Program-made: the position numbers and the translations under genes
Notes under the pieces: model-generated
Databases searched by the model: none
What the model saw: the letters and a program-made list of their open reading frames with translations, nothing else
Told to the model about the DNA's origin: nothing
IMG/VR virus record: IMGVR_UViG_3300019487_000030
DNA length: 64,000 bases
Source of the DNA: a virus
Direction: 5' to 3' (one strand)
Shown: positions 24,843 to 54,157 of the stretch, piece after piece
How the letters are laid out: the number at the start of each line of letters is the position of its first letter
Position numbering within the stretch: position 1 is the stretch's first letter

Positions 24843-25763
24843 ATGATGTCGACCGAGACTGAAACCGAGACCGAGACCAGCACCAACAGTGTGCACCAAG
24901 CTGAGCTACCGAACACCGAACCGTTGCTGCCTCCACGTGCTCACTGCACCGCTCCGATCAAGTGGGTGGGCGGCAAGCGTTGGCTCGTGCCGACGATCGC
25001 ACCGTCGATCTACGAGCGCCTCGGCACGACGCAGGGTCGCTACATCGAGCCGTTCATGGGCTCGGCGGCAGTCGCGCTCGATCTCGGCTTGCCGGGAATG
25101 ATCCTCGCCGATGTTTGCAAGCCGCTCGTCGCGACCTACGCAACCATCCGTAAGAGCCCAGAAGCGGTCGCGTGGGCACTACAGACGCTCGTCGAGAAGG
25201 GCACCGACAAGGAGAGCTACCTGGCCGTTCGAGCCAGTGAGCCGTCGAGCGTCGTGTTTGCAGCGGCGCGCTTCATCTTCCTCAACAAGTTCGGTTTCAA
25301 CGGGCTCTACCGCGAGAACAGCAAGGGCAAGTTCAACGTCCCGCATGGCGGTGATCGTTCGAGCGCAGGTATTCCCGGCAAGGATGAGCTGCACGCCGTC
25401 GCGAAGGCGCTCAAGGACGCCGAGATCCGCGTTGCCGACTTCCGATCGACGATCCTGCGCGCGACGGCCGGCGACGTGCTCTACGTCGATTCACCGTACT
25501 ACGAGACGTTCAGCGACTACACGGCCGGTGGCTTCACCGACGAAGATCATCTCGATCTCGCCACGGCCTTGAGGGAAGCGCACGAGCGCGGCGCCGTGTT
25601 CATCGCCTCGAACAGCGACCACGAACGTGTTCGCGAGCTGTACGCGTGGGCCACCGTCGTGCCGGTGTCCGAGCGCCACGCGGTCGGCGCAACCGGCGAA
25701 CGACGTGGTATGAAGCCCGCGGTGCTGATCATGTCCGACGACACGATTCTGCGAGGAGCTTAG
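24843..25763 (+). CDS. dam: Dam-family (D12 class) N6-adenine DNA methyltransferase
   Basis: KWVGGKR, YIEPFMGSAAV, FNGLYRENSKGKFNVP, motif IV as DSPY. Confidence 0.9.
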   Translation: MMSTETETETETSTNSVHQAELPNTEPLLPPRAHCTAPIKWVGGKRWLVPTIAPSIYERLGTTQGRYIEPFMGSAAVALDLGLPGMILADVCKPLVATYATIRKSPEAVAWALQTLVEKGTDKESYLAVRASEPSSVVFAAARFIFLNKFGFNGLYRENSKGKFNVPHGGDRSSAGIPGKDELHAVAKALKDAEIRVADFRSTILRATAGDVLYVDSPYYETFSDYTAGGFTDEDHLDLATALREAHERGAVFIASNSDHERVRELYAWATVVPVSERHAVGATGERRGMKPAVLIMSDDTILRGA

Positions 25764-26751: not shown

Positions 26752-26811
26752 CGCGCGTTGACCGCGAGTGTACTTCAAATGTGGTCAAAACACGCCGGGC
26801 GCCATGACGAC

Positions 26812-26827
26812 GATCGCGGATGCGATC
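26812..26827. promoter_or_regulatory. GATCGC-N4-GCGATC palindrome (imperfect second copy 26842-26857)
   Basis: perfect match in a divergent intergenic region. Confidence 0.7.
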
Positions 26828-26920
26828 GTCTTGACGCCGAGGATCGCTCATGGGATCGTCTTCCTCACAACCCCGAGAGAAGGCATACCGCCAACTTCAG
26901 GGTCAACTTTCACGAAGGAC

Positions 26921-27151
26921 ATGAAGATGAGCATCGAGAACCTCTCGGGTGACGGTCTCGGCAAGCGCCGCCGTCGCCGTCGTCGCCGCCTCGGTTCGAG
27001 CGGCGTGACCCTGGTCGGTCGCCGCCGCCGCGGCAAGGGCTGCAGCGCCGCGGGCGTCAAGGCCAACGGTCGGCTCCGCAAGGGCTACCGCTGGGCGAAG
27101 GGTCGCGCGGGCTGCGCGATCCCGGCCCGCCGCCGCCGCAAGCGCCGCTAG
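26921..27151 (+). CDS. small Arg-rich basic protein
   Basis: GLG-KRRRRRRRR-LG; C-terminal RRRRKRR. Confidence 0.8.
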   Translation: MKMSIENLSGDGLGKRRRRRRRRLGSSGVTLVGRRRRGKGCSAAGVKANGRLRKGYRWAKGRAGCAIPARRRRKRR

Positions 27152-27181
27152 TCGCGGCGCGCTCCGGCGCCAGCCTGAGAG

Positions 27182-27218
27182 AAGGGCCGCGTGCGTTTGA
27201 CGTACGCGGCCTTTTTCT
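27182..27218 (+). terminator. intrinsic terminator
   Basis: GGCCGCGT...ACGCGGCC stem followed by TTTTT. Confidence 0.8.
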
Positions 27219-27252
27219 TGTCCGTCCCCCGTTCTATTTCCCGAGGCTTCTC

Positions 27253-27435
27253 ATGCCGAAGCAACGCTGCCAGGACATGCTCGAAGATCTGCTCTACGAA
27301 GCCGTGGATGCCGGCGCCGCGAACCGCGACGTCAATCCACGGAAGATCGGGCATTTCATCGACGTCTGCGTTCGTCCGAACGCGGCCGGGCTCGGTCGCC
27401 GTAAGCGTCGTACGCGGCGCAGGAGCCGTCGGTGA
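27253..27435 (+). CDS. small protein with GLG + poly-Arg tail
   Basis: AAGLGRRKRRTRRRSRR. Confidence 0.75.
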   Translation: MPKQRCQDMLEDLLYEAVDAGAANRDVNPRKIGHFIDVCVRPNAAGLGRRKRRTRRRSRR

Positions 27436-27662
27436 GCACGTCCACCACCTTCGAGCGTCTGCCGGTCGGCGCGTGCTTCGCGTACAGCCCGAGCAGCAAG
27501 CAAGCAACGCGTCGCAAGATCGACGAGCGTCACATCACGCTCGTTCCCACCACCAAGCGTGAGTGGCGCGTCGACGACGTCGAGATGCACGTCTTCGCGA
27601 AGGCGTGCCCCGTCAACTTCGGTCGCCGTCGCAAGCGGCGCCGAGCCAAGAGGAGTCGCTAG
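27432..27662 (+). CDS. small protein with FG + poly-Arg tail
   Basis: VNFGRRRKRRRAKRSR. Confidence 0.75.
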   Translation: MSTSTTFERLPVGACFAYSPSSKQATRRKIDERHITLVPTTKREWRVDDVEMHVFAKACPVNFGRRRKRRRAKRSR

Positions 27663-27664
27663 TC

Positions 27665-27943
27665 ATGGCGAAGAGGAAGAAGAGGCGCAGGACCCTGCGC
27701 GGTTCGAGTGATCGCTTCGTCGTCAGCGGCCCCGCCACGTGGCGCCGCAGTGTCCACACGACCAAGAGCGCCGCGCTCGATCAGGCCAAGGCCTGCTCGA
27801 AGAAGCACCCGAACGCGGTGTGCCGCGTCACCGAAGGTCTCCCCGGCCTGCAGCGCACGGTTGCCGAGTGCAACCGCAGCGAGTGCTACGCGGTCGGTGG
27901 CGGTGTCGGTCGGCGGCGTCGTCGTCGCAAGGCGAGGCGCTAG
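27665..27943 (+). CDS. small protein with basic N- and C-termini
   Basis: MAKRKKRRRTLRG...GGVGRRRRRKARR. Confidence 0.75.
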   Translation: MAKRKKRRRTLRGSSDRFVVSGPATWRRSVHTTKSAALDQAKACSKKHPNAVCRVTEGLPGLQRTVAECNRSECYAVGGGVGRRRRRRKARR

Positions 27944-27945
27944 TC

Positions 27946-28281
27946 ATGGCGCGGCGCAAGCGTCGTCGCGGGCTCGGCAGCTCCGAGGCGATCCACACCA
28001 AGAAGATGACCGAGGCGTCCGAGGAGATCGGACACATGGTCGCGCTCGTCACCAACAAGTCCCGCAACGGTCGGTGCGGTGCCGCATCGAACGCGTACGG
28101 CTCGATGATGACCGCGTACGGTCAGTACCTCGCGCATCAGGGTGCGGGCGGCCGGGCGAGCGCGCCGTCGCACGCGGCGCTGGTCCGCAAGGCCGCGACC
28201 GAGTTCAACAGCGCGTGCCTCGTCAACCACAGCCACACGATGACCGGTCGCAAGCGCCGTCGGCGGAAAGCGCGCCGCTGA
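27946..28281 (+). CDS. small protein with basic N- and C-termini
   Basis: MARRKRRRGLG...MTGRKRRRRKARR. Confidence 0.75.
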   Translation: MARRKRRRGLGSSEAIHTKKMTEASEEIGHMVALVTNKSRNGRCGAASNAYGSMMTAYGQYLAHQGAGGRASAPSHAALVRKAATEFNSACLVNHSHTMTGRKRRRRKARR

Positions 28282-28283
28282 TC

Positions 28284-28589
28284 ATGGCGAAGCGTCAACG
28301 CCGCGAGCACGTCTCGCTGATCGCCAAGGGTCCGAAGAAGAGTATCCAGCGCGAGGCGGCCCGCTACGGCATCCCGATGTCGTCGTGCGTCTCGCACGGC
28401 AAGGACGTGCAGTGCTTCACGGCTTGCACGCCATCGACACGTGACCGCCTCGACGAGTGGTTCAGGGCGAGCAAGCCGAACCGCTCGACGCAGCGGACGT
28501 GGAGCCGGCCCGGCGCACTGCTGTACGTCGGAGGTTCGTGCCTGAGCGCACTCGGAGCACGCTCGCGTCGACGCCGAAAGGCGCGGTAG
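28284..28589 (+). CDS. small protein with LG + poly-Arg tail
   Basis: MAKRQRR...SALGARSRRRRKAR. Confidence 0.75.
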   Translation: MAKRQRREHVSLIAKGPKKSIQREAARYGIPMSSCVSHGKDVQCFTACTPSTRDRLDEWFRASKPNRSTQRTWSRPGALLYVGGSCLSALGARSRRRRKAR

Positions 28590-28598
28590 AGTCCCGTC

Positions 28599-29888
28599 AT
28601 GGCCGCGATCATCCCGCACCTCGAAGTCCCCGGCGACGTCACCGCGATCGAGCGTGCCTACGACATGTGTGTCGGCTCGCTCAGCGGCCCGAACCTCGGC
28701 GAAGATCACCACGCGTGCCCCGCACCGCAATCGGTCCTCGCGGACGCCCACGCTGGCCTACTCGGCATGGTGTTCGTGCGCGATGCCGTGTTCGAGAGCC
28801 TGAAAGGCCTGCAGTTCATCGTCCGACCCGGCAACGTAGAGGGCAAGGACACGAAGAAGGTCTTCCTCGTGCTCGACCGTCCGATCGGTCCGGGCCCGGC
28901 ATGGAACCCAGCCACGAATCCCGACGTCTCGCAGTACAAGCTCTTGTCGTGGACGTCGAAGATGAACGCGCCGTCGTGGTCGCTGCCGGCTGGCGCACCG
29001 CAGATCGGCGGCGCGTGCCCTGGTGCGGTCGCCGGTCAGAGCGTCGTTCCCGAGAAGGCGCTCGACGCAGGCGCGCGGCTCGTCAACATCGGTCTCGGCC
29101 GACCGGCGAACACGCCGGTCAATCTCGCGCAAGCGATCTGCGAGCACTGCTACGCAACGGGCGGCCAGTACTCGACAGGCCAGGTGCAGTTCGCGCAGAT
29201 CCTCCGGTTCCTGTGGGCGCGCCAGGCGATCAACTACGTGCTGCCGAACGGCTCGACGGCGTTCGTCGAGGCGATGGTCTACGCGATCGACAACGCCGAC
29301 TACAAGCTCAACGGCGGTACGGTGCAGGGTGAAGGCGCCGAAGCGACGCAGGATCTACCGCCCGAGCCGACGGGGCGGCGGTTCTTTCGCATCCACGACT
29401 CAGGCGACTTCTTCGAGGAAGAGTACCTACACCAGTGGAAGATGATCGCGGACCGGCTCCCGGACATCACGTTCTGGGCGCCGTCGCGCATCTGGGCAAC
29501 GAGCTGGGGCATCAACGCGGTCAACAAGATCAACCGCGAGCCGCGCAACCTGATCATCCGTCCGAGCGCATACGAGGTGAACGAACACGGCCCCATCGAT
29601 CTCGGCCCCGGTTGGGCTGGACCAACGACGGTGATTGCGGTCTCGCAGAACCTCGGCATGACGCCCGAGCGTGAGCGCTACGTCTACGAGCACGCGCATC
29701 GGTTCCCGCCCAAGCTCACGGGCCCGGACCCGCGCTACACGTGGAACTGCCAAGCGTACGCGACCGACGACGCGAAGCACACGTGCCGCAAAGCTGTCGC
29801 GCCTCCCGGTCTCGGCGATGCGAACGGCAAGGGCTGTCGCGCGTGCTGGATCGCGCCGACGGAGATCGTCAACTACTCGCTCCACTGA
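28599..29888 (+). CDS. Gp88-like phage protein (Cys-rich, possibly Fe-S/radical-SAM-like)
   Basis: SWSLPAG...ACPGA...CEHCYA...FRIHDSGDF...FWAPSR...CRACW. Confidence 0.7.
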   Translation: MAAIIPHLEVPGDVTAIERAYDMCVGSLSGPNLGEDHHACPAPQSVLADAHAGLLGMVFVRDAVFESLKGLQFIVRPGNVEGKDTKKVFLVLDRPIGPGPAWNPATNPDVSQYKLLSWTSKMNAPSWSLPAGAPQIGGACPGAVAGQSVVPEKALDAGARLVNIGLGRPANTPVNLAQAICEHCYATGGQYSTGQVQFAQILRFLWARQAINYVLPNGSTAFVEAMVYAIDNADYKLNGGTVQGEGAEATQDLPPEPTGRRFFRIHDSGDFFEEEYLHQWKMIADRLPDITFWAPSRIWATSWGINAVNKINREPRNLIIRPSAYEVNEHGPIDLGPGWAGPTTVIAVSQNLGMTPERERYVYEHAHRFPPKLTGPDPRYTWNCQAYATDDAKHTCRKAVAPPGLGDANGKGCRACWIAPTEIVNYSLH

Positions 29889-29896
29889 GGAACGTC

Positions 29897-30358
29897 ATGC
29901 CGAAGAAGAAGCCACCGACCGCGAAGGGCGTCGTCAGCAAGGACGACGTGCCGTGTCTGCGCGTCGTCGTCGGCGGAAAGCCCGGCAAAACCGGACAGAC
30001 CGACGCGAAGTCGTGTGCTCTCGTCGGCGAGAGCCGTGGCGGCATCAGCAAGTTCAACCTCGGCAAGAAGTTCAACTCGACGAGCAAAACGGTCGCGACG
30101 CCCAAGAACAACAAGCCGTGTCTCGGCGCGCTCAAGCGTATTGGCTGCCCGGTGCAGCTCGCGTTCGAGAACGGACAGCCGTTCCTGCGGTTCTGTACGA
30201 CCGAGAAGCAACCCGGCTATCGCGTCGACGTCAACAACCCGGCCGAGGCGGTCGCACAGGCGAACGCAGCGTGTGCGACCTGGAAGGCCAAGGGCAAGTT
30301 CGAGTTCCCGCCGGGAACGCCGCTCCGCGGCGCCCGTAAGCGCAAACGAGCGAAGTGA
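29897..30358 (+). CDS. basic Cys-containing protein with LRG + basic tail
   Basis: PLRGARKRKRAK C-terminus. Confidence 0.72.
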   Translation: MPKKKPPTAKGVVSKDDVPCLRVVVGGKPGKTGQTDAKSCALVGESRGGISKFNLGKKFNSTSKTVATPKNNKPCLGALKRIGCPVQLAFENGQPFLRFCTTEKQPGYRVDVNNPAEAVAQANAACATWKAKGKFEFPPGTPLRGARKRKRAK

Positions 30359-30359
30359 C

Positions 30360-30385
30360 GATCGCGCACGCGATCGTGGTAGGCT
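30360..30385 (+). promoter_or_regulatory. palindrome + TAGGCT box
   Basis: GATCGCGCACGCGATC-GTGG-TAGGCT. Confidence 0.7.
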
Positions 30386-30405
30386 ATTGACCAAGGAGCT
30401 GCCCT

Positions 30406-30870
30406 GTGCCTGTGCACCTGATCAAACGCAACAGCCCGTTCGAGGACCGGTTCATCCCGGAACCGAACAGCGGCTGCTGGTTGTGGTTGGGCGGAACACA
30501 ATCTCAAGGCTACGGCGTGCTCGGTCCAAAGAATGCGAAGGTTCTCGCTTCGCGCTTTGCGTATGAGAAGTATCGCGGTCCGGTCCCAGCAAAGCTGCAT
30601 GTACTGCACAAGTGCGACACGCCTTCGTGCGTCAATCCTGATCACCTGTTCGTCGGCACACGACGGGACAATATGCAGGACGCGTCTCGCAAGGGTCGTA
30701 TGCACCCAGGTGAGGCTGATGGAATGGCGAAGCTGACCCAACAGCAAGTCGATCAAATCCGTCAGGACGCGAACCGTGGCGTCTCCAAGACCCACCTCGC
30801 GCAGCGGTTCAACGTTCACCGATCTCAAATCAGCCGCATCATCAATCGGCGGCGCTGGAAGAGGAATTAG
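30406..30870 (+). CDS. HNH homing endonuclease
   Basis: PNSGCWLW, VLHKCDTPSCVNPDHL...DN, KLT-HTH. Confidence 0.9.
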   Translation: MPVHLIKRNSPFEDRFIPEPNSGCWLWLGGTQSQGYGVLGPKNAKVLASRFAYEKYRGPVPAKLHVLHKCDTPSCVNPDHLFVGTRRDNMQDASRKGRMHPGEADGMAKLTQQQVDQIRQDANRGVSKTHLAQRFNVHRSQISRIINRRRWKRN

Positions 30871-30875
30871 CGCCA

Positions 30876-31318
30876 TGCCACATGTTTTTACGCTCGAAGG
30901 CAACACCCCCGCGCAGCTCGCAGGTCTGGGCGCGAACATCGTGTCGTACCCGCCCGCCGGCTCGGCGATCTCGCCGCATGCTGCAGTCATCGGCCCCACA
31001 CGTGTCGCGATGCAGGTGTTCGGACCCGGCGGCACGCCGGTCATGTACCGTCGGCGCTACCCTGCGCGCGGTCCGGTCTGCGACTACTGCGATCCGAGCT
31101 ACTTCACCGTGATGAACGGCGGCCTGCAAGTCATCCCGCAGCAACAGCAACAGCTCGGTGACGTCGTCGACTTCCTGCGCGCACGCAACCCCGTCGTCGC
31201 AGGCCTCATGGTGCTCGGTGGCTCACTCGCAACCGGTGCGATTCTCGGTGGCCGCGCAATCTTCCTGATGCACAAGGCCGGCTACCAGACGCCGAAAGCC
31301 TACGACCACGACTGGTAG
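30876..31318 (+). CDS. membrane protein with LG motifs
   Basis: AGLG, CDYC, QQQQQLGD, C-terminal TM. Confidence 0.7.
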
Positions 31319-31323
31319 TGAAC

Positions 31324-31430
31324 GTTGATCGCTCGCGCGATCACAGGTAGCCTCTGAGAACCTCGTCGCACAGCGCGACCCGGTCACGGCAAGGAGGCCA
31401 TCATGGGTACGAAAGCAGGAGCACTTCTCT
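31324..31430 (+). repeat. about 110-bp promoter/leader/gene-start repeat, copy 1 (copy 2 at 33718-33830)
   Basis: shared palindrome, TAGCCT, ACCTCGTCGCA and AGGAGGCCATCATGGGTACGAAAGCAGGAGCACTTCTCTGGAA. Confidence 0.85.
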
Positions 31431-31792
31431 GGAACCGACAGCATCTGACGCTGCTCGCCGGTCTGACCGAGGTCGATACCGGCATCGAGCAGGTCAACAA
31501 GGGATTCGGCAGCATGTCGCCGAACGAACCGCCGATGGGCATCACGATCGCGCCGCCCGGCCCGCCGGATGGCGCACTGCCCGCGTCGCGTGTCATGGTC
31601 ATCCCGCAGGCACCGACGACGCCGTGGGCCAACATCACGCACAGCGAGCCGTACGTGAACCCCGCCACCGGGACGATCTTCGTCACGTTCAACAACGCCG
31701 ACAAGACGCCCGCCACCATCAATGTCCTGTTCTGGGATCCGCACTCGCTGATCGGTCCCGGTGACGCGGACGCCTACAACGAGGAGGGCTAG
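31403..31792 (+). CDS. WDPHS-family protein, paralog 1
   Basis: MGTKAGALLWNR...INVLFWDPHSLIGPGDAD. Confidence 0.85.
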   Translation: MGTKAGALLWNRQHLTLLAGLTEVDTGIEQVNKGFGSMSPNEPPMGITIAPPGPPDGALPASRVMVIPQAPTTPWANITHSEPYVNPATGTIFVTFNNADKTPATINVLFWDPHSLIGPGDADAYNEEG

Positions 31793-31794
31793 TC

Positions 31795-32175
31795 ATGGGA
31801 AGGAAGGCAGCAGCACTTCTCTGGAATCGCATGCGCGTCGAGATCCTCGACGGCGTCATCGACATCGACACCGGGCTGACGCAGCCCAACCGCAGCTTCC
31901 CGGACTACTCGCCGGGTGAGCCGCCGTTAGGTGTCAACGCGGCCGTGTCGCCGGTCGCCGGCACGCCGCCCGCGTCACGCATCCAGGTCATTCCGATGGC
32001 ACCGCTCTCGGACTGGCAAGGCGTGACCCACGGCGAGCCGTACTTCAACACGACGACGAACACGATCCACGTGCAGTTCTCGAACGGCGTGCAGACGTTC
32101 ATCAACGTCCTGTTCTGGGATCCGCACTCGCTGATCGGTCCCGGCGACGCCGACACGTACAACGCGGCGCCGTAG
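31795..32175 (+). CDS. WDPHS-family protein, paralog 2
   Basis: MGRKAAALLWNR...INVLFWDPHSLIGPGDAD. Confidence 0.85.
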   Translation: MGRKAAALLWNRMRVEILDGVIDIDTGLTQPNRSFPDYSPGEPPLGVNAAVSPVAGTPPASRIQVIPMAPLSDWQGVTHGEPYFNTTTNTIHVQFSNGVQTFINVLFWDPHSLIGPGDADTYNAAP

Positions 32176-32730
32176 CTACGACGACGCTGCGCGAGCAGCG
32201 TTTCGTACAATGCGCGAACGGATCGTCAAGACCCAGTTCGTGTATCGCGACGTCTTATAGTTCGTGAGCGCCTGATTGCCGCCGTTGTAGCCGGCGAGCG
32301 CGCACCGAAGTCGATCATCGACGGGCAGTCGTGCACAGCGCTTATCGTCGAGCCACGCCTGCAGATGTGCAGCCCCGACGCCGTACGCGTACGCGACGTC
32401 TGTGCGCATGCGCTGGCATTCGTCCCACGGCACGTAGCCACCGGTCTGCATCGGACCGCAGTACCAACTCGGTCGAGCCTTCGGCGGCCTCGCGGCTCTC
32501 GGCCACACGCCCGTCTTGCGCGTGCAGCTTTCTGGATCTGCACTCTCGCATTCGTTGCGACTGAGCGCGCGGGGGTCGTAGCGCGACTCGATGAACGCGA
32601 TGCTGAGTAGTAGCTCGACCGGTGTCTGCTCGGTCGCAGCGGCCGTCGCTGCTTCGACGTGTTCACGCGCCTGCTCGGGTGACAGGGACGTAACCAGGGC
32701 AGTGATAGCGAAGATCAAGGGTTCGAGCAT
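32176..32730 (-). CDS. lytic transglycosylase (SLT-like) with N-terminal signal/TM
   Basis: IAFIESRY, GPMQT, LAGYNGG; hydrophobic N-terminus. Confidence 0.82.
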   Translation of the reverse strand: MLEPLIFAITALVTSLSPEQAREHVEAATAAATEQTPVELLLSIAFIESRYDPRALSRNECESADPESCTRKTGVWPRAARPPKARPSWYCGPMQTGGYVPWDECQRMRTDVAYAYGVGAAHLQAWLDDKRCARLPVDDRLRCALAGYNGGNQALTNYKTSRYTNWVLTIRSRIVRNAARAASS

Positions 32731-32769
32731 CGCTGGACCCTACTACGGGTTTCGTCAAGAGGAATCGAT

Positions 32770-32796
32770 GATCGCTCGCACGATCGATGATAGGCT
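32770..32796 (+). promoter_or_regulatory. palindrome (1 mismatch) + TAGGCT
   Basis: GATCGCTCGCACGATC-GATGA-TAGGCT. Confidence 0.65.
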
Positions 32797-32802
32797 CGAC
32801 GG

Positions 32803-33216
32803 GTGCTGACCCTCCAGTGCGCCGACGGGCTCGGAGACCCCATCTCGGATCTCTCGTCGCTGCTCTCGAAGGGTGGCGCGATTCTCCAGAAGGCAGGCCC
32901 GTACCTCGACACGGTGCTCGAAGTCGTCCAGGACCCAGCACTGCCGCAGTTAGTGACGAAGATCAAGACGCTCAAGGCGCTCGACACCGGCACAAGCATG
33001 CCAAGTGCTCCAGGCGCACCGTCGACACCGGGCGTCGGCCTCAACCGTGTACTGCCGCTCTGGGACGCGGCAATCTGGTACACGAAGTACCCATGGGCAC
33101 CGTGGGTGATCGGCGGCGGCACGATCCTCGTGCTCGGCGGCATCGGTTTTGGAATCGGCCGCGCGACCAAGAAGTGTCGTACGGGTATGGGACGCTCGTA
33201 TCGTAGGAGACGCTGA
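32803..33216 (+). CDS. membrane protein with GLG-D motif
   Basis: ADGLGDP; C-terminal TM followed by basic tail. Confidence 0.72.
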   Translation: MLTLQCADGLGDPISDLSSLLSKGGAILQKAGPYLDTVLEVVQDPALPQLVTKIKTLKALDTGTSMPSAPGAPSTPGVGLNRVLPLWDAAIWYTKYPWAPWVIGGGTILVLGGIGFGIGRATKKCRTGMGRSYRRRR

Positions 33217-33218
33217 AC

Positions 33219-33722
33219 ATGCCCGAGCAACGCTCTGACAAGATCACCATCGATGCGCTCGCGAAGATGTTCGGTCTGCCCGACTGGGACAAGATCGACG
33301 AGATGAACCAGGAGTACTACTGGGAAGAAGCGCGCGGGATTCCCGACGAGGACGAGCGCATGGCTGCCGAGCAGCGTGCCCAAGAAGAGGTCTTCGCGAA
33401 GTGGTACGACGCCGTCGAAAAGGTGGCCGACACGCTGTTCGAGGAACACGGGCTCACGCTCGAACCGGTTCGCAAGAAGGACCGCCGCTCGTACGAGCTG
33501 CGCGTCATGCCACGCTACTCGTGGAAGGACGCCGCCGACAAGATTCGCGAGACGATCAACGGCGCGGGGCCGTTCTGGTACAAGAACCTGCGCGAGTTCC
33601 TTGACTCGGGGCCGTACACGGCGCGCCAGGCCGTGCTCTCGCACCTCGGCTGGATCAAGCACTATCCGGCCGTCTACGGGGGCTCCGGCGCCCATCAGAT
33701 GTACGAAGCAGCCTGGCGTTGA
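33219..33722 (+). CDS. hypothetical protein
   Basis: AGGAG RBS; typical codons. Confidence 0.75.
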   Translation: MPEQRSDKITIDALAKMFGLPDWDKIDEMNQEYYWEEARGIPDEDERMAAEQRAQEEVFAKWYDAVEKVADTLFEEHGLTLEPVRKKDRRSYELRVMPRYSWKDAADKIRETINGAGPFWYKNLREFLDSGPYTARQAVLSHLGWIKHYPAVYGGSGAHQMYEAAWR

Positions 33723-33830
33723 TCGCTCACGCGATCGGCAGTAGCCTCGGGGATACCTCGTCGCATCTCGCGACACCGGCTACGGCTTAGGAGGCCATCA
33801 TGGGTACGAAAGCAGGAGCACTTCTCTGGA
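33718..33830 (+). repeat. promoter/leader repeat, copy 2 (palindrome 33721-33736)
   Basis: matches 31324-31430. Confidence 0.85.
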
Positions 33831-34150
33831 ATCGAATGCGGATCGCCGTTCCCGGCAATGACACGCTCGACGTCGACACGGGTATCACGCAGGTGAACCA
33901 GTCGTTCGCTGACATGTCGCCGGACGAGCCAGGCTTCGGAGATCCGTCGCGTATCCAGGTGATGCCCATGATGCCCATCGACGCCTGGGCGACGATCTCA
34001 CACGGCGAGCCCTACTTCGATCCGGCCACGGGCACGATTCGCGTCGCGTTCTCGAACACCGACGAAGGCACCGTGACGATCAACGCGCTGTTCTGGAACC
34101 CGCACTCGCTCGTCGGTCCGGGCGAGGCAGATCCGTACAACGACGACTGA
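33800..34150 (+). CDS. WDPHS-family protein, paralog 3
   Basis: MGTKAGALLWNR...INALFWNPHSLVGPGEAD. Confidence 0.85.
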   Translation: MGTKAGALLWNRMRIAVPGNDTLDVDTGITQVNQSFADMSPDEPGFGDPSRIQVMPMMPIDAWATISHGEPYFDPATGTIRVAFSNTDEGTVTINALFWNPHSLVGPGEADPYNDD

Positions 34151-34153
34151 TCG

Positions 34154-34513
34154 CTACGCCGCGAGCGTGTGACGGAATTCGAGCGCGACAATCGCGACCG
34201 CGTTCGGTTCGGCCATGATCCTCACGGCGGCGCTCGTTGTCGGACCGTGGACGATGCCGTCCATCGCAACGCGCGGGAACGAACGTGGCGTCACGAATGT
34301 GCGCATCGACGGGTTACAGAGCAGGTAACGACACGCTGCTTCGTTGTCGCCGAGCCGCACGCCGCGCGAGATGTAATCCCGCAGCGGGCCTCGAACAGCG
34401 GCTTTGATGAGATCCTCCTGGGTCAGGATGACCTCGCCGCCTTCTTCATCTGCGACGACGCTGTACTTGAGCAAGTTCGGTGTCGCGCCTTCACGTCTGA
34501 TCTGGAGCCCCAT
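34154..34513 (-). CDS. hypothetical protein
   Basis: ORF downstream of 34529-34984, weakly similar to it. Confidence 0.65.
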   Translation of the reverse strand: MGLQIRREGATPNLLKYSVVADEEGGEVILTQEDLIKAAVRGPLRDYISRGVRLGDNEAACRYLLCNPSMRTFVTPRSFPRVAMDGIVHGPTTSAAVRIMAEPNAVAIVALEFRHTLAA

Positions 34514-34528
34514 GGGGCCCCCAGCCTA

Positions 34529-34984
34529 TCAGACTCCGTTCGTGCCCGGGATGTACACGTCGAGGTAGCAGAACTGCGGGGCGGCGGGAGCCGTGATCGC
34601 GAGGACCATGTTCGAGCCCGCGACGTTGGCGTCGATCGCCCAGCCTGCCGCGACGTCGCGCGGCGAGAGTGCCGCACGGGCGGTCGGGAATGCCCCCGAG
34701 TTCGCCGGGGTCGAACCCGACGGCGACGCACCCGCGTAGTCCGAGAGCAGAACCGCACGCGCCTTGGCCTGGGTCATCGGCGTCGCGATCGCGCCGTAAC
34801 CCTCCGTGTTCGCCTTGGCGAGACGCCGCATCTGGCCATTGCGACCGGCGGTGTCGGTCAGCAGATCGGGCGTCGCGCCGCCGGTCGCGCCGATGTTGAG
34901 GGTGGTACCAGCATTACCGTCCTGCGTGAGCAGGTACGTGAGGCGGTTGCCGGAAGCGCGAACGAGGGCAGCAGTGACAGCCAT
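34529..34984 (-). CDS. hypothetical Ala/Gly/Thr-rich protein (possible virion protein)
   Basis: AAGGAG RBS; preceded by palindrome leader. Confidence 0.75.
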   Translation of the reverse strand: MAVTAALVRASGNRLTYLLTQDGNAGTTLNIGATGGATPDLLTDTAGRNGQMRRLAKANTEGYGAIATPMTQAKARAVLLSDYAGASPSGSTPANSGAFPTARAALSPRDVAAGWAIDANVAGSNMVLAITAPAAPQFCYLDVYIPGTNGV

Positions 34985-35048
34985 GATGATTCTCCTTGCC
35001 GTGGCCGGACTCGGGGGATCCGAGTGAGGTTCCCAGAACCGTACCGAC

Positions 35049-35064
35049 GATCGCTCGCGCGATC
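35049..35064. promoter_or_regulatory. GATCGC-N4-GCGATC palindrome
   Basis: perfect match; on minus strand followed by GTCGG-TACGGT and a CACGGCAAGGAG leader like 31385. Confidence 0.7.
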
Positions 35065-35096
35065 AAGCAACGGAATCGGTGTTACTATCGCCGACA

Positions 35097-35494
35097 TGGC
35101 GAGCCCGAGCCAACACGAATACGAGATGCGCGAGCGTCGCGCGGCGCAGCATCACCTCGACGAGATCCGCAAGGCTCCGCTCGCCGATCGAAAGGACGCG
35201 CAGCTCGACTTCTTCAAGGCGATGCGCGACTCACCGCGCCTGGTCGGCGAACGCGTCGGCTGGCTGCTGGACGGCAACTACGGCTACGGCTCGATGCTGC
35301 TCGCAAAGCAGATCTTGCACAGCCCTCGCATGAACCGCGTCGCTGCGCTCACGCAGATGATCGGCGCGTTCGAGTGGCAGTGTCCCGAGGACATGACGCG
35401 CCAAGCATGGAAGCGGCTGACGCCCGGCGAGAAGCACGAGCTGGCACGTGCCGTCGAGAAGGTGATCCACGACGCCGAAGACAATGAAGGCTAG
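35097..35494 (+). CDS. hypothetical protein
   Basis: ORF with typical codons. Confidence 0.7.
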
Positions 35495-36063
35495 CCGTTG
35501 TTCTTGCCGAACGAGTGCGGCACGAACATGTCTTCGAGCCGCCGCGGGTAGATGAGTTGCGGGCCGCCGTTCGAGAGCTTCTCGACGGCTGCTGCACACG
35601 TCTGACGCAGCACGCGGCACACCGGTACGCTCGGGAAGTCGAGCAGGAACCGGCGCTGCAAGTACGGGCCGCCCGTGAAGCCCTTCTCGATCCCGACGAC
35701 GACGCGCGCGAGACCGAGCGTTGCCTTCACCATCCATTCGCCTAGCTCGAATCGCATCTGTGCCGCATAGGTGCGGTTGCAGCGGTGACTGGTCTCGCGT
35801 GCGCACCAGAACAGGATCACACCGTCGCGCGCTGCACGGTCGATGCACGCGCGCTCCCACACGAGCTGCTTGTCCATGCCGCCTTTGAAGTTCGCGCCGC
35901 GCTGACTCGCGACGTGAACGTCAGGTGCAAGCTCCCCGAGCGCATCGATCGCGTCGGCCTGCCAATCACCTACACCTTGGATCGGTCCGGCGAGGTAGAT
36001 CAGTGGTCCGTCGAGCTGCTGGAGAGCGTCGAGCTGCGGCGCGATGATCACGTGTCGCGGCAT
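35491..36063 (-). CDS. nucleoside 2-deoxyribosyltransferase-like protein
   Basis: IYLAGPI...DWQ...QLVWE...VILFW...RFELGEW; start uncertain. Confidence 0.75.
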   Translation of the reverse strand: MPRHVIIAPQLDALQQLDGPLIYLAGPIQGVGDWQADAIDALGELAPDVHVASQRGANFKGGMDKQLVWERACIDRAARDGVILFWCARETSHRCNRTYAAQMRFELGEWMVKATLGLARVVVGIEKGFTGGPYLQRRFLLDFPSVPVCRVLRQTCAAAVEKLSNGGPQLIYPRRLEDMFVPHSFGKNNG

Positions 36064-36079
36064 CTCCGCATCATACCAT

Positions 36080-36973
36080 CTACTTGAGAATTGCCTCGAA
36101 GGCATCGACGCAGCGCTTCGCCGAGACTTTCTGGGCGCGATGGCGTTGCGAGTTGATGCGTCCGAGGCGTGGAACGAGAACACCGTTGATGTTGATCTCC
36201 CAGATCTGCGGCTTGCCGTTGAGCAAGCCGTAGTCGATGCGGCCGTACTCGATGCCGGCGATCTCGAACGCTCGAATCACCTCGGGCAAGATCGGCGGCT
36301 GGTGCTTGATGCCGACGAACGCTGCGTCCTCGGCTGACAGTGCCATCTCGACGACATCGGACGTCTTCGTCACCCAGTTGCGACTGAAGATGACGTGCCG
36401 CGCGACGTAGCGATCACCGATGCGCTGCACGCTGTACTTGCGATAGATGCCGTTCCACACGCCGCCCTTCTCGGCGGTGTCGACGTACTCGGTCACCATC
36501 GAGTCGGGGCTCGCGAGCTGTGGATGCTGTGCGAACAAGCGTTCGGCGTCCGCCTTGTGGTGCAGCAGAATCGACGTGCGCTCGTGTTCGTGACGAGGCC
36601 GCACGAACACAGGGAATCGCCACGCTGCCATCTGCGTCGGGTCGGCGTCGTGCACGTTGTACGTGTTGATGCCGACCTCGTATAGCTTCTTGAGCAGCTC
36701 GAAGCGTCCTAGCACACGCGACGGCATGTTGAACACGCGCTGGTTCTCGTTGCGGAGCTTCGCCTCGACGGCGAGCATCTGCGAACGGCTCTGCGGGTCG
36801 GTTGCTTCGTCATGACCGACGAAGATCCACGTCTTCGCGTCGACACGTTCACCGTTGGCGATGCGCTCGACGTCGATGAAACGAATCCGCGGCACCATCT
36901 TCGGTGCGTACTCGAATAGGAACTCCGAGATCGTGAAGCGATTGGTCCGCGGCGCCATGAGGAAACAGATCAC
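36080..36973 (-). CDS. ATP-grasp fold protein
   Basis: FNMP, FPVFVRP, VTEYVD, YGRIDYGLLNGKPQIWEININ; GGAG + GTG at 36973. Confidence 0.75.
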   Translation of the reverse strand: MICFLMAPRTNRFTISEFLFEYAPKMVPRIRFIDVERIANGERVDAKTWIFVGHDEATDPQSRSQMLAVEAKLRNENQRVFNMPSRVLGRFELLKKLYEVGINTYNVHDADPTQMAAWRFPVFVRPRHEHERTSILLHHKADAERLFAQHPQLASPDSMVTEYVDTAEKGGVWNGIYRKYSVQRIGDRYVARHVIFSRNWVTKTSDVVEMALSAEDAAFVGIKHQPPILPEVIRAFEIAGIEYGRIDYGLLNGKPQIWEININGVLVPRLGRINSQRHRAQKVSAKRCVDAFEAILK

Positions 36974-37338
36974 GTGGGCTCCAGCGATAGATGGGTGTGC
37001 AGTGCGAACCAGCGGTTGTCGACGCGCATCAGCAAGATCGTCGCGCGACCATAGCGCGGTGAATCGTCCGACGTACGCCGAGACGACCACTGCGCGATGA
37101 TCACGCAGAGAGATCCCGCCTCGATGATCTGCGGCGCTTGAAACGTGAATCCGTACGTCGTGTCCCAGATCGGCCGCCACTGCGCGGTTTCGAGCTGCTC
37201 GATCCCGTTCGCAACGGGGATCGCCGTACCGAACGCCCGCACGTCGGGGCAGAACAATGCCCGTGCCGCTGTGTAGTCGCGGTTGCGGACTGCCGATGCG
37301 AACGCGTCCAGCCAGGCTAGGGGCATCGCAGGGACCAT
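36970..37338 (-). CDS. SnoaL/NTF2-like protein
   Basis: WLDAFASAVRNRDY...LFCPDV..FG...GRATILL...WFALHTHLS. Confidence 0.75.
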   Translation of the reverse strand: MVPAMPLAWLDAFASAVRNRDYTAARALFCPDVRAFGTAIPVANGIEQLETAQWRPIWDTTYGFTFQAPQIIEAGSLCVIIAQWSSRRTSDDSPRYGRATILLMRVDNRWFALHTHLSLEPT

Positions 37339-37373
37339 ACCAAAGCGCCCCCAGTTCACGATACGCTGATGCC

Positions 37374-38102
37374 ATGCTCGCAGCCGCCTACCTCGGTGAC
37401 GTCGAACCGTCTCGTGGACGCTTCGGCCGAACATGGACGGACGCACAGTTACGTACCGCCATTGCAGCGTCCCGAAACTTCGCTGAAGTCTGCGCGAAAC
37501 TGGGGCTGACCTCACAGCGCAATCGAGTCGTCGTGGAACGCACCCGGACGCTCGGGCTCGACACGATGCACTTCACGAGTCAGACGACGCGTGGCGAGAA
37601 GCGACAAAACGCAGTCACGCTCGATGACATCCTGACCAACAAACGACCGTTCGAGTCGTCGTACGTCAAGAAGCGGCTCTTGAAGGCCGGACTGCTCACG
37701 TACCACTGCTACGAGTGCAAGCTCGTCGAGTGGCGCGGCAAGCCACTGACACTGGAACTGGATCACATCGACGGCAACAACCAGAACAACGCGCTGAACA
37801 ACCTGCGCTTGCTTTGTCCGAACTGTCACGCACAGACGCCGACGTTTCGCGGACGGAACATCACGCAGCGGATGACAAAGACGTTGGTATACCGTTGCGA
37901 AAAGTGTGAGAAGCAGATCTCGTGCGGTGCCCGATTCTGCCGTTCGTGCGCTCCCAAGCGTAGCAAACCGCGCGAATGGCCGCCCGACACAGAGTTGCAG
38001 ATGCTCGTCGAAACGCTCGGACCTCTTGCGACGTCGCGTCGTCTCGGCGTAAGTCGCCACGTACTGCACGAACACCTCCAGCAGATGGGATCCCCAGCAT
38101 GA
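37374..38102 (+). CDS. HNH homing endonuclease
   Basis: CYEC...LELDHIDGNNQNNALNNLRLLCPNCHAQT; C-terminal Zn finger/HTH. Confidence 0.9.
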   Translation: MLAAAYLGDVEPSRGRFGRTWTDAQLRTAIAASRNFAEVCAKLGLTSQRNRVVVERTRTLGLDTMHFTSQTTRGEKRQNAVTLDDILTNKRPFESSYVKKRLLKAGLLTYHCYECKLVEWRGKPLTLELDHIDGNNQNNALNNLRLLCPNCHAQTPTFRGRNITQRMTKTLVYRCEKCEKQISCGARFCRSCAPKRSKPREWPPDTELQMLVETLGPLATSRRLGVSRHVLHEHLQQMGSPA

Positions 38103-38689
38103 TGTCTATGCAGCAGCTCGGCGATGTCGAGCCATACCAACAGGTCGAGCGCTATTCGTGTGGAGCGGCCACGCTCAAGGCCGTGCTCGGCCACTGGGGC
38201 GAGCGTCTTCCCGAACGAAAGCTGATCAAGGAGATCGGCATCGATCCCGAGAACGGCTCGACGGCGCTCCAGGTCGCCGACGCCGCTCGCCGACGCGGCT
38301 ACAACGCGCAGGTCAAGCTGTTCGGCTCGATTGCCGAGCTTGGACGCGTAACGGCGCAGAACACGCCGGTCATCCTTGCGATCCAGAGCTTCACGCGCCC
38401 GAACCAGGGCCACTTCGTCGTCGCGACTGAGGTCAAGCCGACCGTCGTCGGGATCATGGACCCGAACGTCAAAGGCAACCGCCGCACGCTCACGCACCGC
38501 GAGCTGGACAAACGCTGGAAGTTCCGTGATCGGGTCGGCGTGATCGTCACGCCCAAGACGAAGAAGACCCAGCTCGGCTCCGTGTCGTGGACGCCGCGCA
38601 CGACGGTGTTCGCCCTCGCGGGCGCGGCTCTGGCCATTGCTGGCGCGGTGACCGGCGTCGTGATCTACCGTCGCAAGCGCACGAGCTAG
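38099..38689 (+). CDS. stand-alone C39-family cysteine peptidase with C-terminal membrane anchor
   Basis: Q-x5-C (QQVERYSCGAA), GHFVV, MDPN; TM helix then RRKR. Confidence 0.85.
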   Translation: MMSMQQLGDVEPYQQVERYSCGAATLKAVLGHWGERLPERKLIKEIGIDPENGSTALQVADAARRRGYNAQVKLFGSIAELGRVTAQNTPVILAIQSFTRPNQGHFVVATEVKPTVVGIMDPNVKGNRRTLTHRELDKRWKFRDRVGVIVTPKTKKTQLGSVSWTPRTTVFALAGAALAIAGAVTGVVIYRRKRTS

Positions 38690-53283: not shown

Positions 53284-53326
53284 CTCTGGCGCACGCCAGC
53301 GTCTGTGACTACTAGGGAGAAGAGCC

Positions 53327-54157
53327 ATGAGCAAGACGAGCAAGCAGAAGGTCAGCAAGAAGTCCGAGGGCGTTTTCCATTTCCGGCCGGGGTGGATGGT
53401 CGTCGACTGTTCATCGGCCACGGGCGGCATTCGCTACGACCGCGAGCTGCTCGGTGAGGAGCCGATCAACCGCAAGCGCGGTCTGCAGGTCGACCACAAG
53501 ACCCGCAAGACCGTCGACAACGTCGAGTTCTGCGCAGCGGTCGACGCCGTCGTGAAGAAGGTCGACTACGTACTGCGCAAGCACTGCGCGCGGACGGACA
53601 TGGGCTGGTTCGCCGACGACAGCGTGCTCCACAAGATCAAGGCCGAAGTCGCCGAGATCGAGCGCGAGGCACACGAGCTGAACACGGTCGGCGCGAAGAA
53701 GGCCAAGAGTGCGCGCCAGGCGAAGATCCGCGTGGTGCCGCTCAAGCTCGACCTCGCCAAGCCCGAGGCCGTGCAGGAGATCGCCGGCACGATCCGCAGC
53801 GTGCTGATCGAGCTGCGCGACGCGCTCAAGACCGGCAACCTCGCCGATCTGCACAAGCTCCGCATCCGTTCGCGCAACCTGGAGAAGCTCGCGGTCGGCT
53901 TCCAGAGCGACGCGATCAAGTTCGCATTGGAGCGCGTGCCGCTCGCTGCCGCCGAGATCCGCGAGGCAGTGAAGAACGCGACGCGCGCTACGAAGAACGA
54001 CGGCGAGGACAAGGACAGGATCGCCGAGGTCGGCGAGATCACCGCGAAGCGCGCGGGCGGTAAGGTCGACGTCGAGTCGATCGAGGCTGCGATCGCCCAC
54101 TTCGAGGCGTCGCCGCTCGCCGGAACCGACAGCAACGACGTCGACGAAGCGGCGTAA
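53327..54157 (+). CDS. helical hypothetical protein associated with the MoxR-vWA module
   Basis: AGGGAG RBS; position typical of DUF3150-like partners (family unverified). Confidence 0.7.
   Translation: MSKTSKQKVSKKSEGVFHFRPGWMVVDCSSATGGIRYDRELLGEEPINRKRGLQVDHKTRKTVDNVEFCAAVDAVVKKVDYVLRKHCARTDMGWFADDSVLHKIKAEVAEIEREAHELNTVGAKKAKSARQAKIRVVPLKLDLAKPEAVQEIAGTIRSVLIELRDALKTGNLADLHKLRIRSRNLEKLAVGFQSDAIKFALERVPLAAAEIREAVKNATRATKNDGEDKDRIAEVGEITAKRAGGKVDVESIEAAIAHFEASPLAGTDSNDVDEAA

What the first reader, a model, noticed from the sequence alone, without database searches (positions are those of the whole stretch)
26921..38689. Cassette of poly-Arg-tailed proteins with a shared hydrophobic-Gly motif plus a stand-alone C39 protease: candidate virion maturation/DNA-condensation system
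Seen: seven small unrelated cores (26921-30358) each carry an (L/F/V/T/R)G motif followed by a basic tail: DGLG-KRRRR, AGLG-RRKRR, VNFG-RRRKRR, GGVG-RRRRR, TMTG-RKRRRR, SALG-ARSRRRR and PLRG-ARKRK. Several also have basic N-termini ending in LRG or GLG. LG-D/LG-S recurs in nearby membrane proteins (QQLG-DVV, DGLG-DP) and twice in the C39 protease itself (QQLG-DVE, TQLG-SV just before its TM anchor). Several junctions read stop-TC-ATG. Established: C39 peptidases cut after Gly-Gly/Ala/Ser motifs, and adenovirus protamine-like core proteins are matured at Gly motifs. Inference: basic tails act as detachable DNA-binding/packaging tags that load diverse cargo proteins into the particle and are clipped by the C39 protease, which may also release itself.
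Basis: partly seen in the sequence, partly recalled or inferred. Interest (0 to 1): 0.85.

Follow-up and report, generated by a model that had tools for sequence, protein, structure and literature searches.

The report
Shared poly-arginine tails on phage proteins
In an uncultivated large phage from a cave metagenome, a run of unrelated, very basic small proteins all end in "hydrophobic-Gly plus arginine run" tails kept by selection; what the tails do is unknown, and comparison of related genomes argues against removal by the nearby C39 protease.

Summary
Seven co-directional genes (26921-30358) encode unrelated, strongly basic, Cys-containing small proteins. Each ends in Gly plus an R/K run. 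The cassette and its tails are conserved in nine related IMG/VR phage contigs. About 6.5% of predicted proteins in this clade carry such tails. Phage L5 (same GC) has 0 of 87, and distant GP88-bearing phages of similar GC have none.

Arg codons turn over synonymously, so the peptide is under selection. The last about four codons (KRSR, KARR) also form the next gene's Shine-Dalgarno.

The C39 peptidase (true start 38099) is intact, ComA-like and membrane-anchored. The proposed clipping by C39 is not supported:
- A complete relative (137.9 kb, terminal repeats) has the most uniform tails (LSGARRRRR and similar) but no C39.
- Only one tail contains Gly-Gly.
- The LG-D/LG-S sites in the protease are not conserved.

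Natural gene fusions keep one tail per polypeptide. In the widespread H family the tail is sometimes replaced by a membrane anchor.

Best reading (about 0.4): an uncleaved polycationic address or tether, most likely to nucleic acid. Virion loading is untested.

The scan noted the same phenomenon before in another genome (e1-3508330).

The parts
26808..26862 (.). Two copies of the GATCGC-N4-GCGATC palindrome upstream of gene A; left boundary of the cassette
   Evidence: 20 matches in the window against 1.8 expected; copies at 26812 and 26842.
26921..27151 (+). Gene A, 76 aa, net charge +27. It has a short leader-like start (MKMSIENLSGDGLG), then R8-LGSS, then a Cys-bounded basic segment, and ends ARRRRKRR.
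   Evidence: Orthologues are present in 8 of the 9 related contigs. G003 has a leaderless 30-aa Cys-loop peptide at the same position.
27177..27219 (+). Intrinsic terminator hairpin directly after gene A
   Evidence: -34.2 kcal/mol, z = -8.3. It is conserved in relatives with compensatory changes (GGCCGCG/CGCGGCC versus GGCCACG/CGTGGCC).
27253..27435 (+). Gene B, 60 aa, ends AAGLGRRKRRTRRRSRR. It is the least certain gene call.
   Evidence: GC3 is 0.74. My gene caller preferred an antisense ORF. Orthologues with a tail exist in L002, L004 and L008.
27432..27662 (+). Gene C, 76 aa, ends CPVNFGRRRKRRRAKRSR. The last codons AAG AGG AGT CGC hold the Shine-Dalgarno of gene D.
   Evidence: C is fused to D in L008.
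27665..27943 (+). Gene D, 92 aa. It has the head MAKRKKRRRTLRGSS, a confidently folded small alpha/beta core with 4 Cys, and the tail GGGVGRRRRRRKARR.
   Evidence: (pLDDT above 90 for the core). Weak fold matches to T4 Dmd (Z 6.0) and AcrIF9 (Z 5.2).
27946..28281 (+). Gene E, 111 aa, head MARRKRRRGLGSS, tail TMTGRKRRRRKARR
28284..28589 (+). Gene F, 101 aa, tail SALGARSRRRRKAR. The family has paralogues in relatives, all with tails.
28599..29888 (+). Gene G, 429 aa, long-form GP88 domain protein (PF17338). It has no tail and is the most conserved gene of the cassette.
29897..30358 (+). Gene H, 153 aa, six invariant Cys, tail TPLRGARKRKRAK. It belongs to a widespread family that always follows long-form GP88.
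30360..30375 (.). GATCGCGCACGCGATC palindrome; right boundary of the cassette
32803..33216 (+). Membrane protein, 137 aa: C-terminal TM helix, spacer, then GMGRSYRRRR. An example of the tail on a membrane protein.
   Evidence: Orthologues are present in G001 and G005.
37374..38102 (+). HNH endonuclease inserted at the start of the C39 gene. It begins with the protease's original start (MLAAAYLGDVEP).
   Evidence: in G001, which lacks the HNH gene, the protease starts MLAAAHLGDVEPYQQ.
38099..38689 (+). Stand-alone C39 peptidase, 196 aa, with a C-terminal TM anchor followed by RRKRTS
   Evidence: PF03412 2e-15; PF13529 7.5e-10; ComA peptidase domain, E = 4e-5; Gln, Cys, His and Asp motifs invariant in 7 orthologues.

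Best explanation
The cassette is a translationally coupled operon. It is bounded by the phage's GATC palindromes and has an internal terminator after gene A. It encodes unrelated small, very basic, Cys-containing proteins.

Each protein carries a lineage-specific C-terminal module: a hydrophobic-Gly or Leu-x-Gly hinge followed by five to eight Arg/Lys. The module is selected as a peptide. Its last three to five codons also serve as the Shine-Dalgarno of the next cistron.

The most likely role (inferred, not shown) is an uncleaved polycationic address or tether. It would hold many different small phage proteins on one polyanionic surface. That surface is most probably nucleic acid (phage or host DNA/RNA), given the overall charge of the proteins and the position of the genes beside the DNA-metabolism and Dam methylase genes.

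The C39 peptidase is a separate gene of this subclade and its substrate is unknown.
For: Shown:
- The tails are real, far more frequent than in the control phages, and conserved.
- Arg codons turn over synonymously: 71 synonymous and 27 R<->K changes against 18 other. The last four codons are more often identical and spell AAGAGGAG or AAGGCGAGG, 7-14 nt before the next ATG.
- Tails also stand where no coupled gene follows: A lies before a terminator and H before a gap.
- Fusions keep one tail per polypeptide.
- The whole proteins are basic, net +9 to +27, against a proteome median near 0.
- The same LG-polyR ending sits 10-20 residues after the TM helix of many membrane proteins of the clade.
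- Tails persist, and are most uniform, in a complete genome without any C39.
- The cassette follows the replication genes and the Dam methylase gene on the same strand in the window, and a Dam-like gene in G003.

Inferred: that the tails bind a polyanion, and that this polyanion is nucleic acid.
Against: - No binding data exist.
- The near-invariant Leu/hydrophobic-Gly before the run, and the uniform L-x-G-A/P-R5 endings in G003, point to a specific reader (a receptor or a protease) rather than plain electrostatics.
- In the H family, 19 of 147 relatives carry GLG plus a TM anchor instead of the tail. This fits membrane targeting as well as, or better than, DNA binding.
- The cores gave no DNA-binding fold. 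The best matches for D are small phage inhibitor proteins, at low Z.
- Gene timing is unknown.
Confidence: 0.4

Rival explanations
1. The tails are detachable packaging tags that load cargo proteins into the capsid with the DNA. The membrane-anchored C39 peptidase clips them off after the (L/F/V)G motif, and may also release itself.
For: - A conserved small or hydrophobic motif precedes the run.
- A subset of tails reads L-x-G-[A/G/T], the register cut by C39 and other papain-like enzymes. Examples are PLRGA in H, PLRGG in the L005/L007 orthologues, and LSGA and LTGA in G003.
- The C39 has intact catalytic motifs and is syntenic in 6 of the 9 related contigs and in the window itself.
- Gene A has a short non-basic leader ending GDGLG before its cationic part. 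The C39-less G003 has a leaderless A-like peptide. This is a single lineage, so it counts as one event only.
- Fusions keep one tail per polypeptide.
Against: - G003 is complete and rich in tails but has no C39, C39_2 or C5 peptidase.
- Only 1 of 7 tails has Gly-Gly.
- No double-glycine leader pattern is present.
- The C39 gene is about 8 kb away.
- Its LG sites are not conserved.
- The N-terminal QQLGD of the window's protease is a by-product of the HNH insertion.
- No capsid or terminase gene was recognisable near the cassette.
- The complex prediction gave no answer.
Confidence: 0.08
2. Capsid-loading or DNA-riding tags that do not depend on C39. The tails dock the proteins to the negatively charged capsid interior or to the packaged DNA, so that small effectors (for example counter-defence proteins) enter the next cell with the genome. 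They may or may not be trimmed by another protease.
For: - The tag behaves as one per polypeptide.
- It is shared by unrelated cores.
- The D core weakly resembles the small phage inhibitors Dmd and AcrIF9.
- Engineered capsids load cargo through deca-arginine tags, and encapsulins use C-terminal peptides (own knowledge).
Against: - There is no link to structural genes.
- The tail also sits on many membrane proteins.
- No virion data exist.
- The fold matches fall below the range where a match means more than a common arrangement.
Confidence: 0.17
3. Peripheral membrane anchors. The polybasic tails hold the proteins on the anionic inner leaflet of the host membrane, as polybasic tails do in other systems.
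For: - In the H family the tail is replaced by GLG + TM + KK in 19 of 147 representatives, and in the complete relative G006.
- The clade encodes unusually many proteins with a C-terminal TM helix followed by an Arg run, and the C39 is one of them.
Against: - The tails lack the hydrophobic or amphipathic residues that usually accompany bacterial membrane-targeting sequences.
- The cores themselves are highly basic and Cys-rich, which is more typical of nucleic-acid binders.
Confidence: 0.15
4. No function as a peptide. The tails are a by-product of placing the next gene's Shine-Dalgarno inside the upstream reading frame in a GC-rich genome, plus triplet slippage.
For: - The last four codons are more conserved at the nucleotide level and spell Shine-Dalgarno sequences.
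- Run length varies between orthologues.
Against: - The Arg run upstream of the Shine-Dalgarno zone changes mostly synonymously.
- Tails occur at operon ends.
- Phages of equal GC and equally tight gene coupling have none.
- A Gly/Leu motif precedes the run.
Confidence: 0.05

Closest known systems
C-terminal cargo-loading peptides of encapsulins, and engineered deca-arginine tags for negatively charged protein cages (own knowledge; not tested here)
   Same: A short C-terminal peptide is shared by unrelated proteins, and one copy per polypeptide is sufficient. In the engineered cages the tag is also polycationic.
   Different: No shell gene is adjacent. The motif is Leu-x-Gly plus an Arg run, not the encapsulin Gly-Ser-Leu type. 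The tail also occurs on membrane proteins. Loading into a particle has not been shown.
Double-glycine leader peptides cut by C39 peptidase domains (ComA, PCAT1, LahT)
   Same: The window encodes a true C39 domain whose nearest solved relative is the ComA peptidase domain. Some tails read L-x-G-A/G.
   Different: Known substrates carry an N-terminal helical leader ending Gly-Gly/Ala/Ser, and the enzyme is fused to an ABC exporter. Here the basic part is C-terminal and Gly-Gly is rare. The enzyme stands alone with a C-terminal TM helix. Tails persist in a genome without it.
Adenovirus core proteins VII and pre-Mu matured by adenain; T4 internal proteins with a capsid-targeting sequence cut by gp21 (own knowledge)
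   Same: These are basic proteins associated with viral DNA. The adenain cleavage consensus, (M/I/L)-x-G-x followed by G, or (M/I/L)-x-G-G followed by x, resembles L-x-G-x.
   Different: No C5 peptidase is present. The T4 tags are N-terminal and are cut at L-x-E. Virion location is unknown here.
Translationally coupled operons with the Shine-Dalgarno inside the 3' end of the upstream cistron
   Same: The last 3-5 codons of C, D and E (KRSR, KARR) spell the Shine-Dalgarno of the next gene. The junctions are stop-TC-ATG or GTGA overlaps.
   Different: This explains only the last few residues, not the upstream Arg run or the Gly motif.
Earlier finding of this scan, e1-3508330 (another genome): 'Leu-x-Gly plus arginine/lysine run' tails in an uncultivated virus lineage
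   Same: The same tail, the same dual use as a ribosome-binding site, the same peptide-level selection, and an unknown function.
   Different: This window adds four things:
- the co-occurrence test against the C39 peptidase;
- the natural fusions;
- the conserved pair of a long-form GP88 gene followed by H;
- the exchange of tail for TM anchor in the H family.

Membership tests
Peptidase C39 (bacteriocin-processing, clan CA), for gene 38099-38689 | Match to the family profile above the curated cut-off | tested here: met
   PF03412: 57.2 bits against a cut-off of 22. PF13529: 40 bits against 24.
Peptidase C39 (bacteriocin-processing, clan CA), for gene 38099-38689 | Catalytic Cys and His, plus the Asp and oxyanion Gln motifs | tested here: met
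   YQQ...YSCGAA, QGHFVV and MDPNV are invariant in 7 orthologues. They align with the ComA peptidase domain.
Peptidase C39 (bacteriocin-processing, clan CA), for gene 38099-38689 | N-terminal domain of an ABC exporter (the usual architecture) | tested here: not met
   The protein is a stand-alone 196 aa with one C-terminal TM helix. No ABC transporter gene was found in the window.
Double-glycine leader substrates of C39, for the tailed proteins | N-terminal leader of about 15-25 aa ending Gly-Gly/Ala/Ser, with hydrophobic residues at -4, -7 and -12 | tested here: not met
   The motif lies before a C-terminal tail. Only D has Gly-Gly. Only the 14-aa start of A (ending GDGLG) looks leader-like, and it ends Leu-Gly.
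Double-glycine leader substrates of C39, for the tailed proteins | Co-occurrence of substrate and peptidase | tested here: not met
   G003 is complete, has 13 tails and no C39 or C39_2. G006 is complete, has 2 tails and no C39. G001 and G005 have both tails and C39.
Adenovirus-type core protein and adenain system | A C5 (adenain) peptidase encoded by the virus | tested here: not met
   PF00770 is absent from G001, G003, G005 and G006.
T4-type internal proteins | N-terminal capsid-targeting sequence cut at L/I-x-E by the prohead protease; presence in virions | not testable with these tools
   The tails are C-terminal and have no L-x-E motif. No virion data exist. No capsid or prohead protease gene was recognised.
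Encapsulin-type cargo-loading peptide | C-terminal peptide shared by cargo proteins that are encoded beside the shell gene | tested here: inconclusive
   A shared C-terminal peptide is present. No HK97-type capsid gene was detected by PF05065 in three relatives, so adjacency could not be judged.
GP88 domain family (PF17338), for gene 28599-29888 | Match to the family profile above the cut-off | tested here: met
   73.6 bits against a cut-off of 24.4. Atlas clusters carry GP88 in 88-100% of members. The function of the family is unknown.

The most novel reading that the evidence does not exclude
The 'Leu-x-Gly + poly-Arg' ending is a true address tag read by an undescribed machinery of this phage lineage. 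It would gather many unrelated small effectors, some of them counter-defence-like, onto the phage genome or into the capsid so that they travel with the DNA. The tag could be removed at the Gly, by C39 in one subclade and by another enzyme elsewhere. This would be a natural counterpart of engineered arginine-tag cargo loading.
Probability: 0.15. Interest if true: 0.8.

Novelty: new variant of a known kind. Interest (0 to 1): 0.55.

Why it matters
Short shared targeting peptides are known for encapsulins, secretion systems and T4 internal proteins. I know of no described poly-arginine tail shared by unrelated phage proteins; this rests on my own knowledge and two unproductive literature searches. 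Here about 6.5% of the predicted proteins of a large uncultivated phage clade carry such a tail.

If the tail is an address tag, it would define a simple, portable rule for where dozens of proteins of unknown function act: on DNA, on the membrane or in the capsid. It would also give a handle for sorting phage ORFans by destination.

The case also shows clearly how one stretch of sequence is shaped by two constraints at once: a peptide tail and the next gene's ribosome-binding site.

The negative result matters too. The attractive pairing of a protease with clippable tags does not survive comparison of complete genomes.

Tried and rejected
- Pfam and PHROGs gave no family for any of the small proteins A-F and H. 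PHROGs on ten larger tail-bearing proteins of relatives gave only an RIIB-like protein and a NUDIX-like protein.
- No close isolate exists among 50,697 phage records. C39 itself has only two weak phage matches.
- Structure prediction: the D core is confident, but the C core and H are poor. Foldseek against PDB gave nothing significant. VIA-align gave a best Z of 6.0 (T4 Dmd) and 5.2 (AcrIF9), below the level that means more than a common arrangement. The Atlas shape search returned only hypothetical proteins and DUF2188.
- Complex prediction of the C39 domain with the H C-terminal half gave no answer (score 0.00). It counts neither for nor against binding.
- Searches for terminase (PF17289) and HK97 capsid (PF05065) in three relatives found nothing. 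PHROGs on ten large G003 proteins found RIIA and unknown families only. The structural module was therefore not located, and the distance between the cassette and the capsid genes could not be judged.
- Host search: the H profile found nothing in 185,579 species genomes. The GP88 profile found one 2.3-kb contig binned with an Acidimicrobiia MAG, which is too weak to name a host.
- Literature searches for protamine-like or polyarginine phage proteins, and for PF17338, found nothing relevant.
- The idea of a conserved 'LG before the TM helix' sorting motif across the clade's membrane proteins was rejected: only a minority have it.
- The idea that the genes form a polyprotein read through the stop-TC-ATG junctions was rejected: the ATG is in another frame relative to the stop.

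Full report
**What the window is.** It is part of a large, uncultivated, high-GC (about 63%) tailed-phage genome.
- Upstream of the finding lie thyX, an SNF2 helicase with an intein-like insert, a PD-(D/E)XK nuclease, class II ribonucleotide reductase, a polA-UDG fusion, a DinG-like helicase, thymidylate kinase and a Dam-like methylase.
- Downstream lie another SNF2 protein, a MoxR-like ATPase and a DUF2201 metallopeptidase/VWA protein.
- No isolate is close.
- The only sequencing run that holds the stretch is a cave metagenome.
- Nine IMG/VR contigs, up to 221 kb, carry the same cassette. Their GP88-like proteins are 74-97% identical to the window's.

**The observation.** On the + strand lie A 26921-27151, B 27253-27435, C 27432-27662, D 27665-27943, E 27946-28281, F 28284-28589, G 28599-29888 (GP88 domain, no tail) and H 29897-30358.
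- All the small proteins end in a Gly one to three residues before an R/K run.
- GC3 is 0.83-0.88, except for B at 0.74.
- The cores show no similarity to each other. Every protein is strongly basic overall, net +9 to +27, while the proteome median is near 0.
- D and E start with basic heads ending LRG-SS or GLG-SS. A contains GLG-K-R8-LGSS internally.
- The junctions C/D, D/E and E/F read stop-TC-ATG. B/C overlap as GTGA.
- A is followed by a strong hairpin with a U tract: -34.2 kcal/mol, z = -8.3. The hairpin is kept in relatives through compensatory changes.
- The cassette is bracketed by copies of the GATCGC-N4-GCGATC palindrome, which occurs 20 times in the window against 1.8 expected.

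**More than chance.**
- In the window and three near-complete relatives (G001, G003, G005), 66 of 1008 predicted proteins have an [RK]4+ run in their last nine residues.
- About half of all such runs lie there, although those positions are about 5% of all residues.
- Mycobacteriophage L5, at the same GC, has 0 of 87.
- About 40 distant GP88-bearing phage loci, six of them at GC 0.58-0.64, have essentially none.
- Gly stands at -1 in 27% of tails against a background of 7.8%. In the cassette it is universal within three residues.

**Selection.**
- Among orthologues, the Arg run (codons -10 to -5) shows 71 synonymous and 27 R<->K differences against 18 others. The peptide is therefore what is kept.
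- The last four codons are identical more often (56% against 33%). They spell AAGAGGAG, AAGGCGAGG or GGAAAG, 7-14 nt before the next start. KRSR and KARR are thus dual-coded with the next Shine-Dalgarno.
- This agrees with an earlier finding of this scan on another genome (e1-3508330).
- The Shine-Dalgarno cannot explain the upstream run. It also cannot explain tails at operon ends (A, H).

**Tag-like behaviour.**
- In L008, C and D are one reading frame. C's tail and D's head are replaced there by AGAGG.
- In L002, D is fused to a further domain.
- Each fusion keeps a single C-terminal tail; L002 also keeps D's basic head, while the L008 fusion starts with C's ordinary N-terminus (MKQKPIAF).
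- In G003 the endings are strikingly uniform: LSGARRRRR twice, LHGPRRRRR, LTGASRRRRRK, GLGRARRKRRRK.
- The same LG-polyR ending also closes many membrane proteins of the clade, 10-20 residues after a C-terminal TM helix.

**The H family and GP88.**
- A profile of H finds 161 relatives among 1.84 billion representatives.
- Most end in (P/A)LG or PLRG plus a short R/K stretch. 71 of 147 have at least five R/K in the last 12 residues.
- 19 of 147 end instead in GLG-E/Q, a TM helix and KK.
- H always follows a long-form GP88 gene. This holds in the window's clade, L048, L049, L140 and L069/G006.
- This is a conserved two-gene module of unknown function.
- The exchange of tail for TM anchor is the best clue that the tail localises the protein to a surface.

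**The C39 peptidase.**
- The gene is real and catalytically intact, and its nearest solved relative is the ComA peptidase domain.
- Its true start is 38099. An HNH gene inserted upstream carries the original start. In G001, which has no HNH gene, the protease begins MLAAAHLGDVEPYQQ.
- The N-terminal LGD is therefore part of the conserved fold. The 'QLGS' before the TM helix varies among orthologues.
- LG[DS] occurs in 16% of the window's proteins.

**Co-occurrence of tails and C39.**

| Genome | Status | C39 | Tails |
|---|---|---|---|
| G001 | CheckV 90% | present | many |
| G005 | CheckV 100% | present | many |
| G003 | 137.9 kb, terminal repeats, CheckV 100% | absent | 13, the most uniform set |
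| G006 | 82.7 kb, terminal repeats, CheckV 100% | absent | 2 |

- C39 is also present in four partial contigs.
- Neither PF03412, PF13529 nor PF00770 is found in G003.
- The two tails of G006 are both A-like Cys-loop peptides, and its H is TM-anchored.
A has a 14-residue non-basic start ending GDGLG wherever C39 is present. The A-like peptide of G003 is a leaderless 30-mer. This rests on a single lineage.
- The complex prediction gave no answer.

**Reading.** The tails are a lineage-specific peptide module kept by selection. They are not a product of GC content or of translational coupling alone.
- I take them to be uncleaved polycationic tethers, most probably to nucleic acid (confidence 0.4). 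The reasons are that the whole proteins are basic and Cys-rich and that the operon sits with the DNA-metabolism and Dam genes.
- The rivals are capsid or DNA-riding cargo tags without C39 (0.17), peripheral membrane anchors (0.15), C39-clipped tags (0.08) and a coding by-product (0.05).
- The conserved Leu-x-Gly suggests a specific reader that I could not identify.
- Structure searches gave only weak leads for the D core: T4 Dmd and AcrIF9, Z 5-6.

**Verdict.** The tag idea is supported, the protease link is not, and virion loading is untested. It is a new variant of a known kind, namely a shared terminal address peptide. This scan has already seen it once on other DNA.

Noticed in passing
window 28599-30358; L048, L049:2088-3717, L140:316-2042, L069: A long-form GP88 gene (PF17338) is always followed directly by an H-family gene: a small Cys-rich domain ending (P/A)LG plus a basic stretch or a TM anchor. 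This is a conserved two-gene module of unknown function across several phage lineages. Short-form GP88 loci lack H.
   Followed up: partly
L008:9247-9687 and L002:9041-9721: Natural gene fusions. C+D form one ORF, with the basic junction replaced by AGAGG. D is fused to an unrelated domain of about 140 aa. Together these hint that the cassette proteins act together.
   Followed up: partly
window 27177-27219 and the same position in L001, L002, L004, L005, L007, L008: A strong terminator hairpin follows gene A (-34 kcal/mol). It is kept by compensatory base changes, so A is set apart from the rest of the operon.
   Followed up: yes
window 26921-27151; G003 (L019:4209-4301); G006 64364-64779: A-like genes encode extremely cationic peptides with a Cys...Cys loop, for example RKICIRTAAGTKVCGTRW and CKFGVAKRGKRKGQC. 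These recall disulfide-looped cationic antimicrobial peptides. G003 and G006, which lack C39, have leaderless versions.
   Followed up: partly
G005 and G001 whole contigs (e.g. G001 140590-145375, G005 93399-97324): An unusually large number of proteins (about 25 per genome) have a single C-terminal TM helix followed by an Arg run. They include paralogous families of 240-660 aa.
   Followed up: no
window 26812, 26842, 30360, 31327, 32770, 33721, 35049, 41069, 55919, 61535: GATCGC-N4-GCGATC palindromes (20 against 1.8 expected) stand mostly in intergenic gaps ahead of + strand genes. They contain GATC sites, and the phage encodes a Dam-like methylase (24846-25763).
   Followed up: partly
window 37374-38134; L013:1400-2082: The HNH gene before the C39 gene starts with the protease's original N-terminus. 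The HNH-free relative G001 starts the protease with MLAAAHLGDVEP. This supports the 'insertion with recoded duplication' note e1-5352608.
   Followed up: partly
G003 52699-56247 (L021:12702-16247, minus strand): RIIA- and RIIB-like proteins are present (PHROG E-values of 1e-85 and 5e-51). The RIIB-like protein ends in a basic tail (KRRRKKLAKRTKRAR).
   Followed up: no
L140 (JBBSAM010000144.1, 2.3 kb): The only genome-collection hit for the long-form GP88 gene followed by H is a short contig binned into an Acidimicrobiia MAG. It is a weak hint at best to the host group.
   Followed up: no
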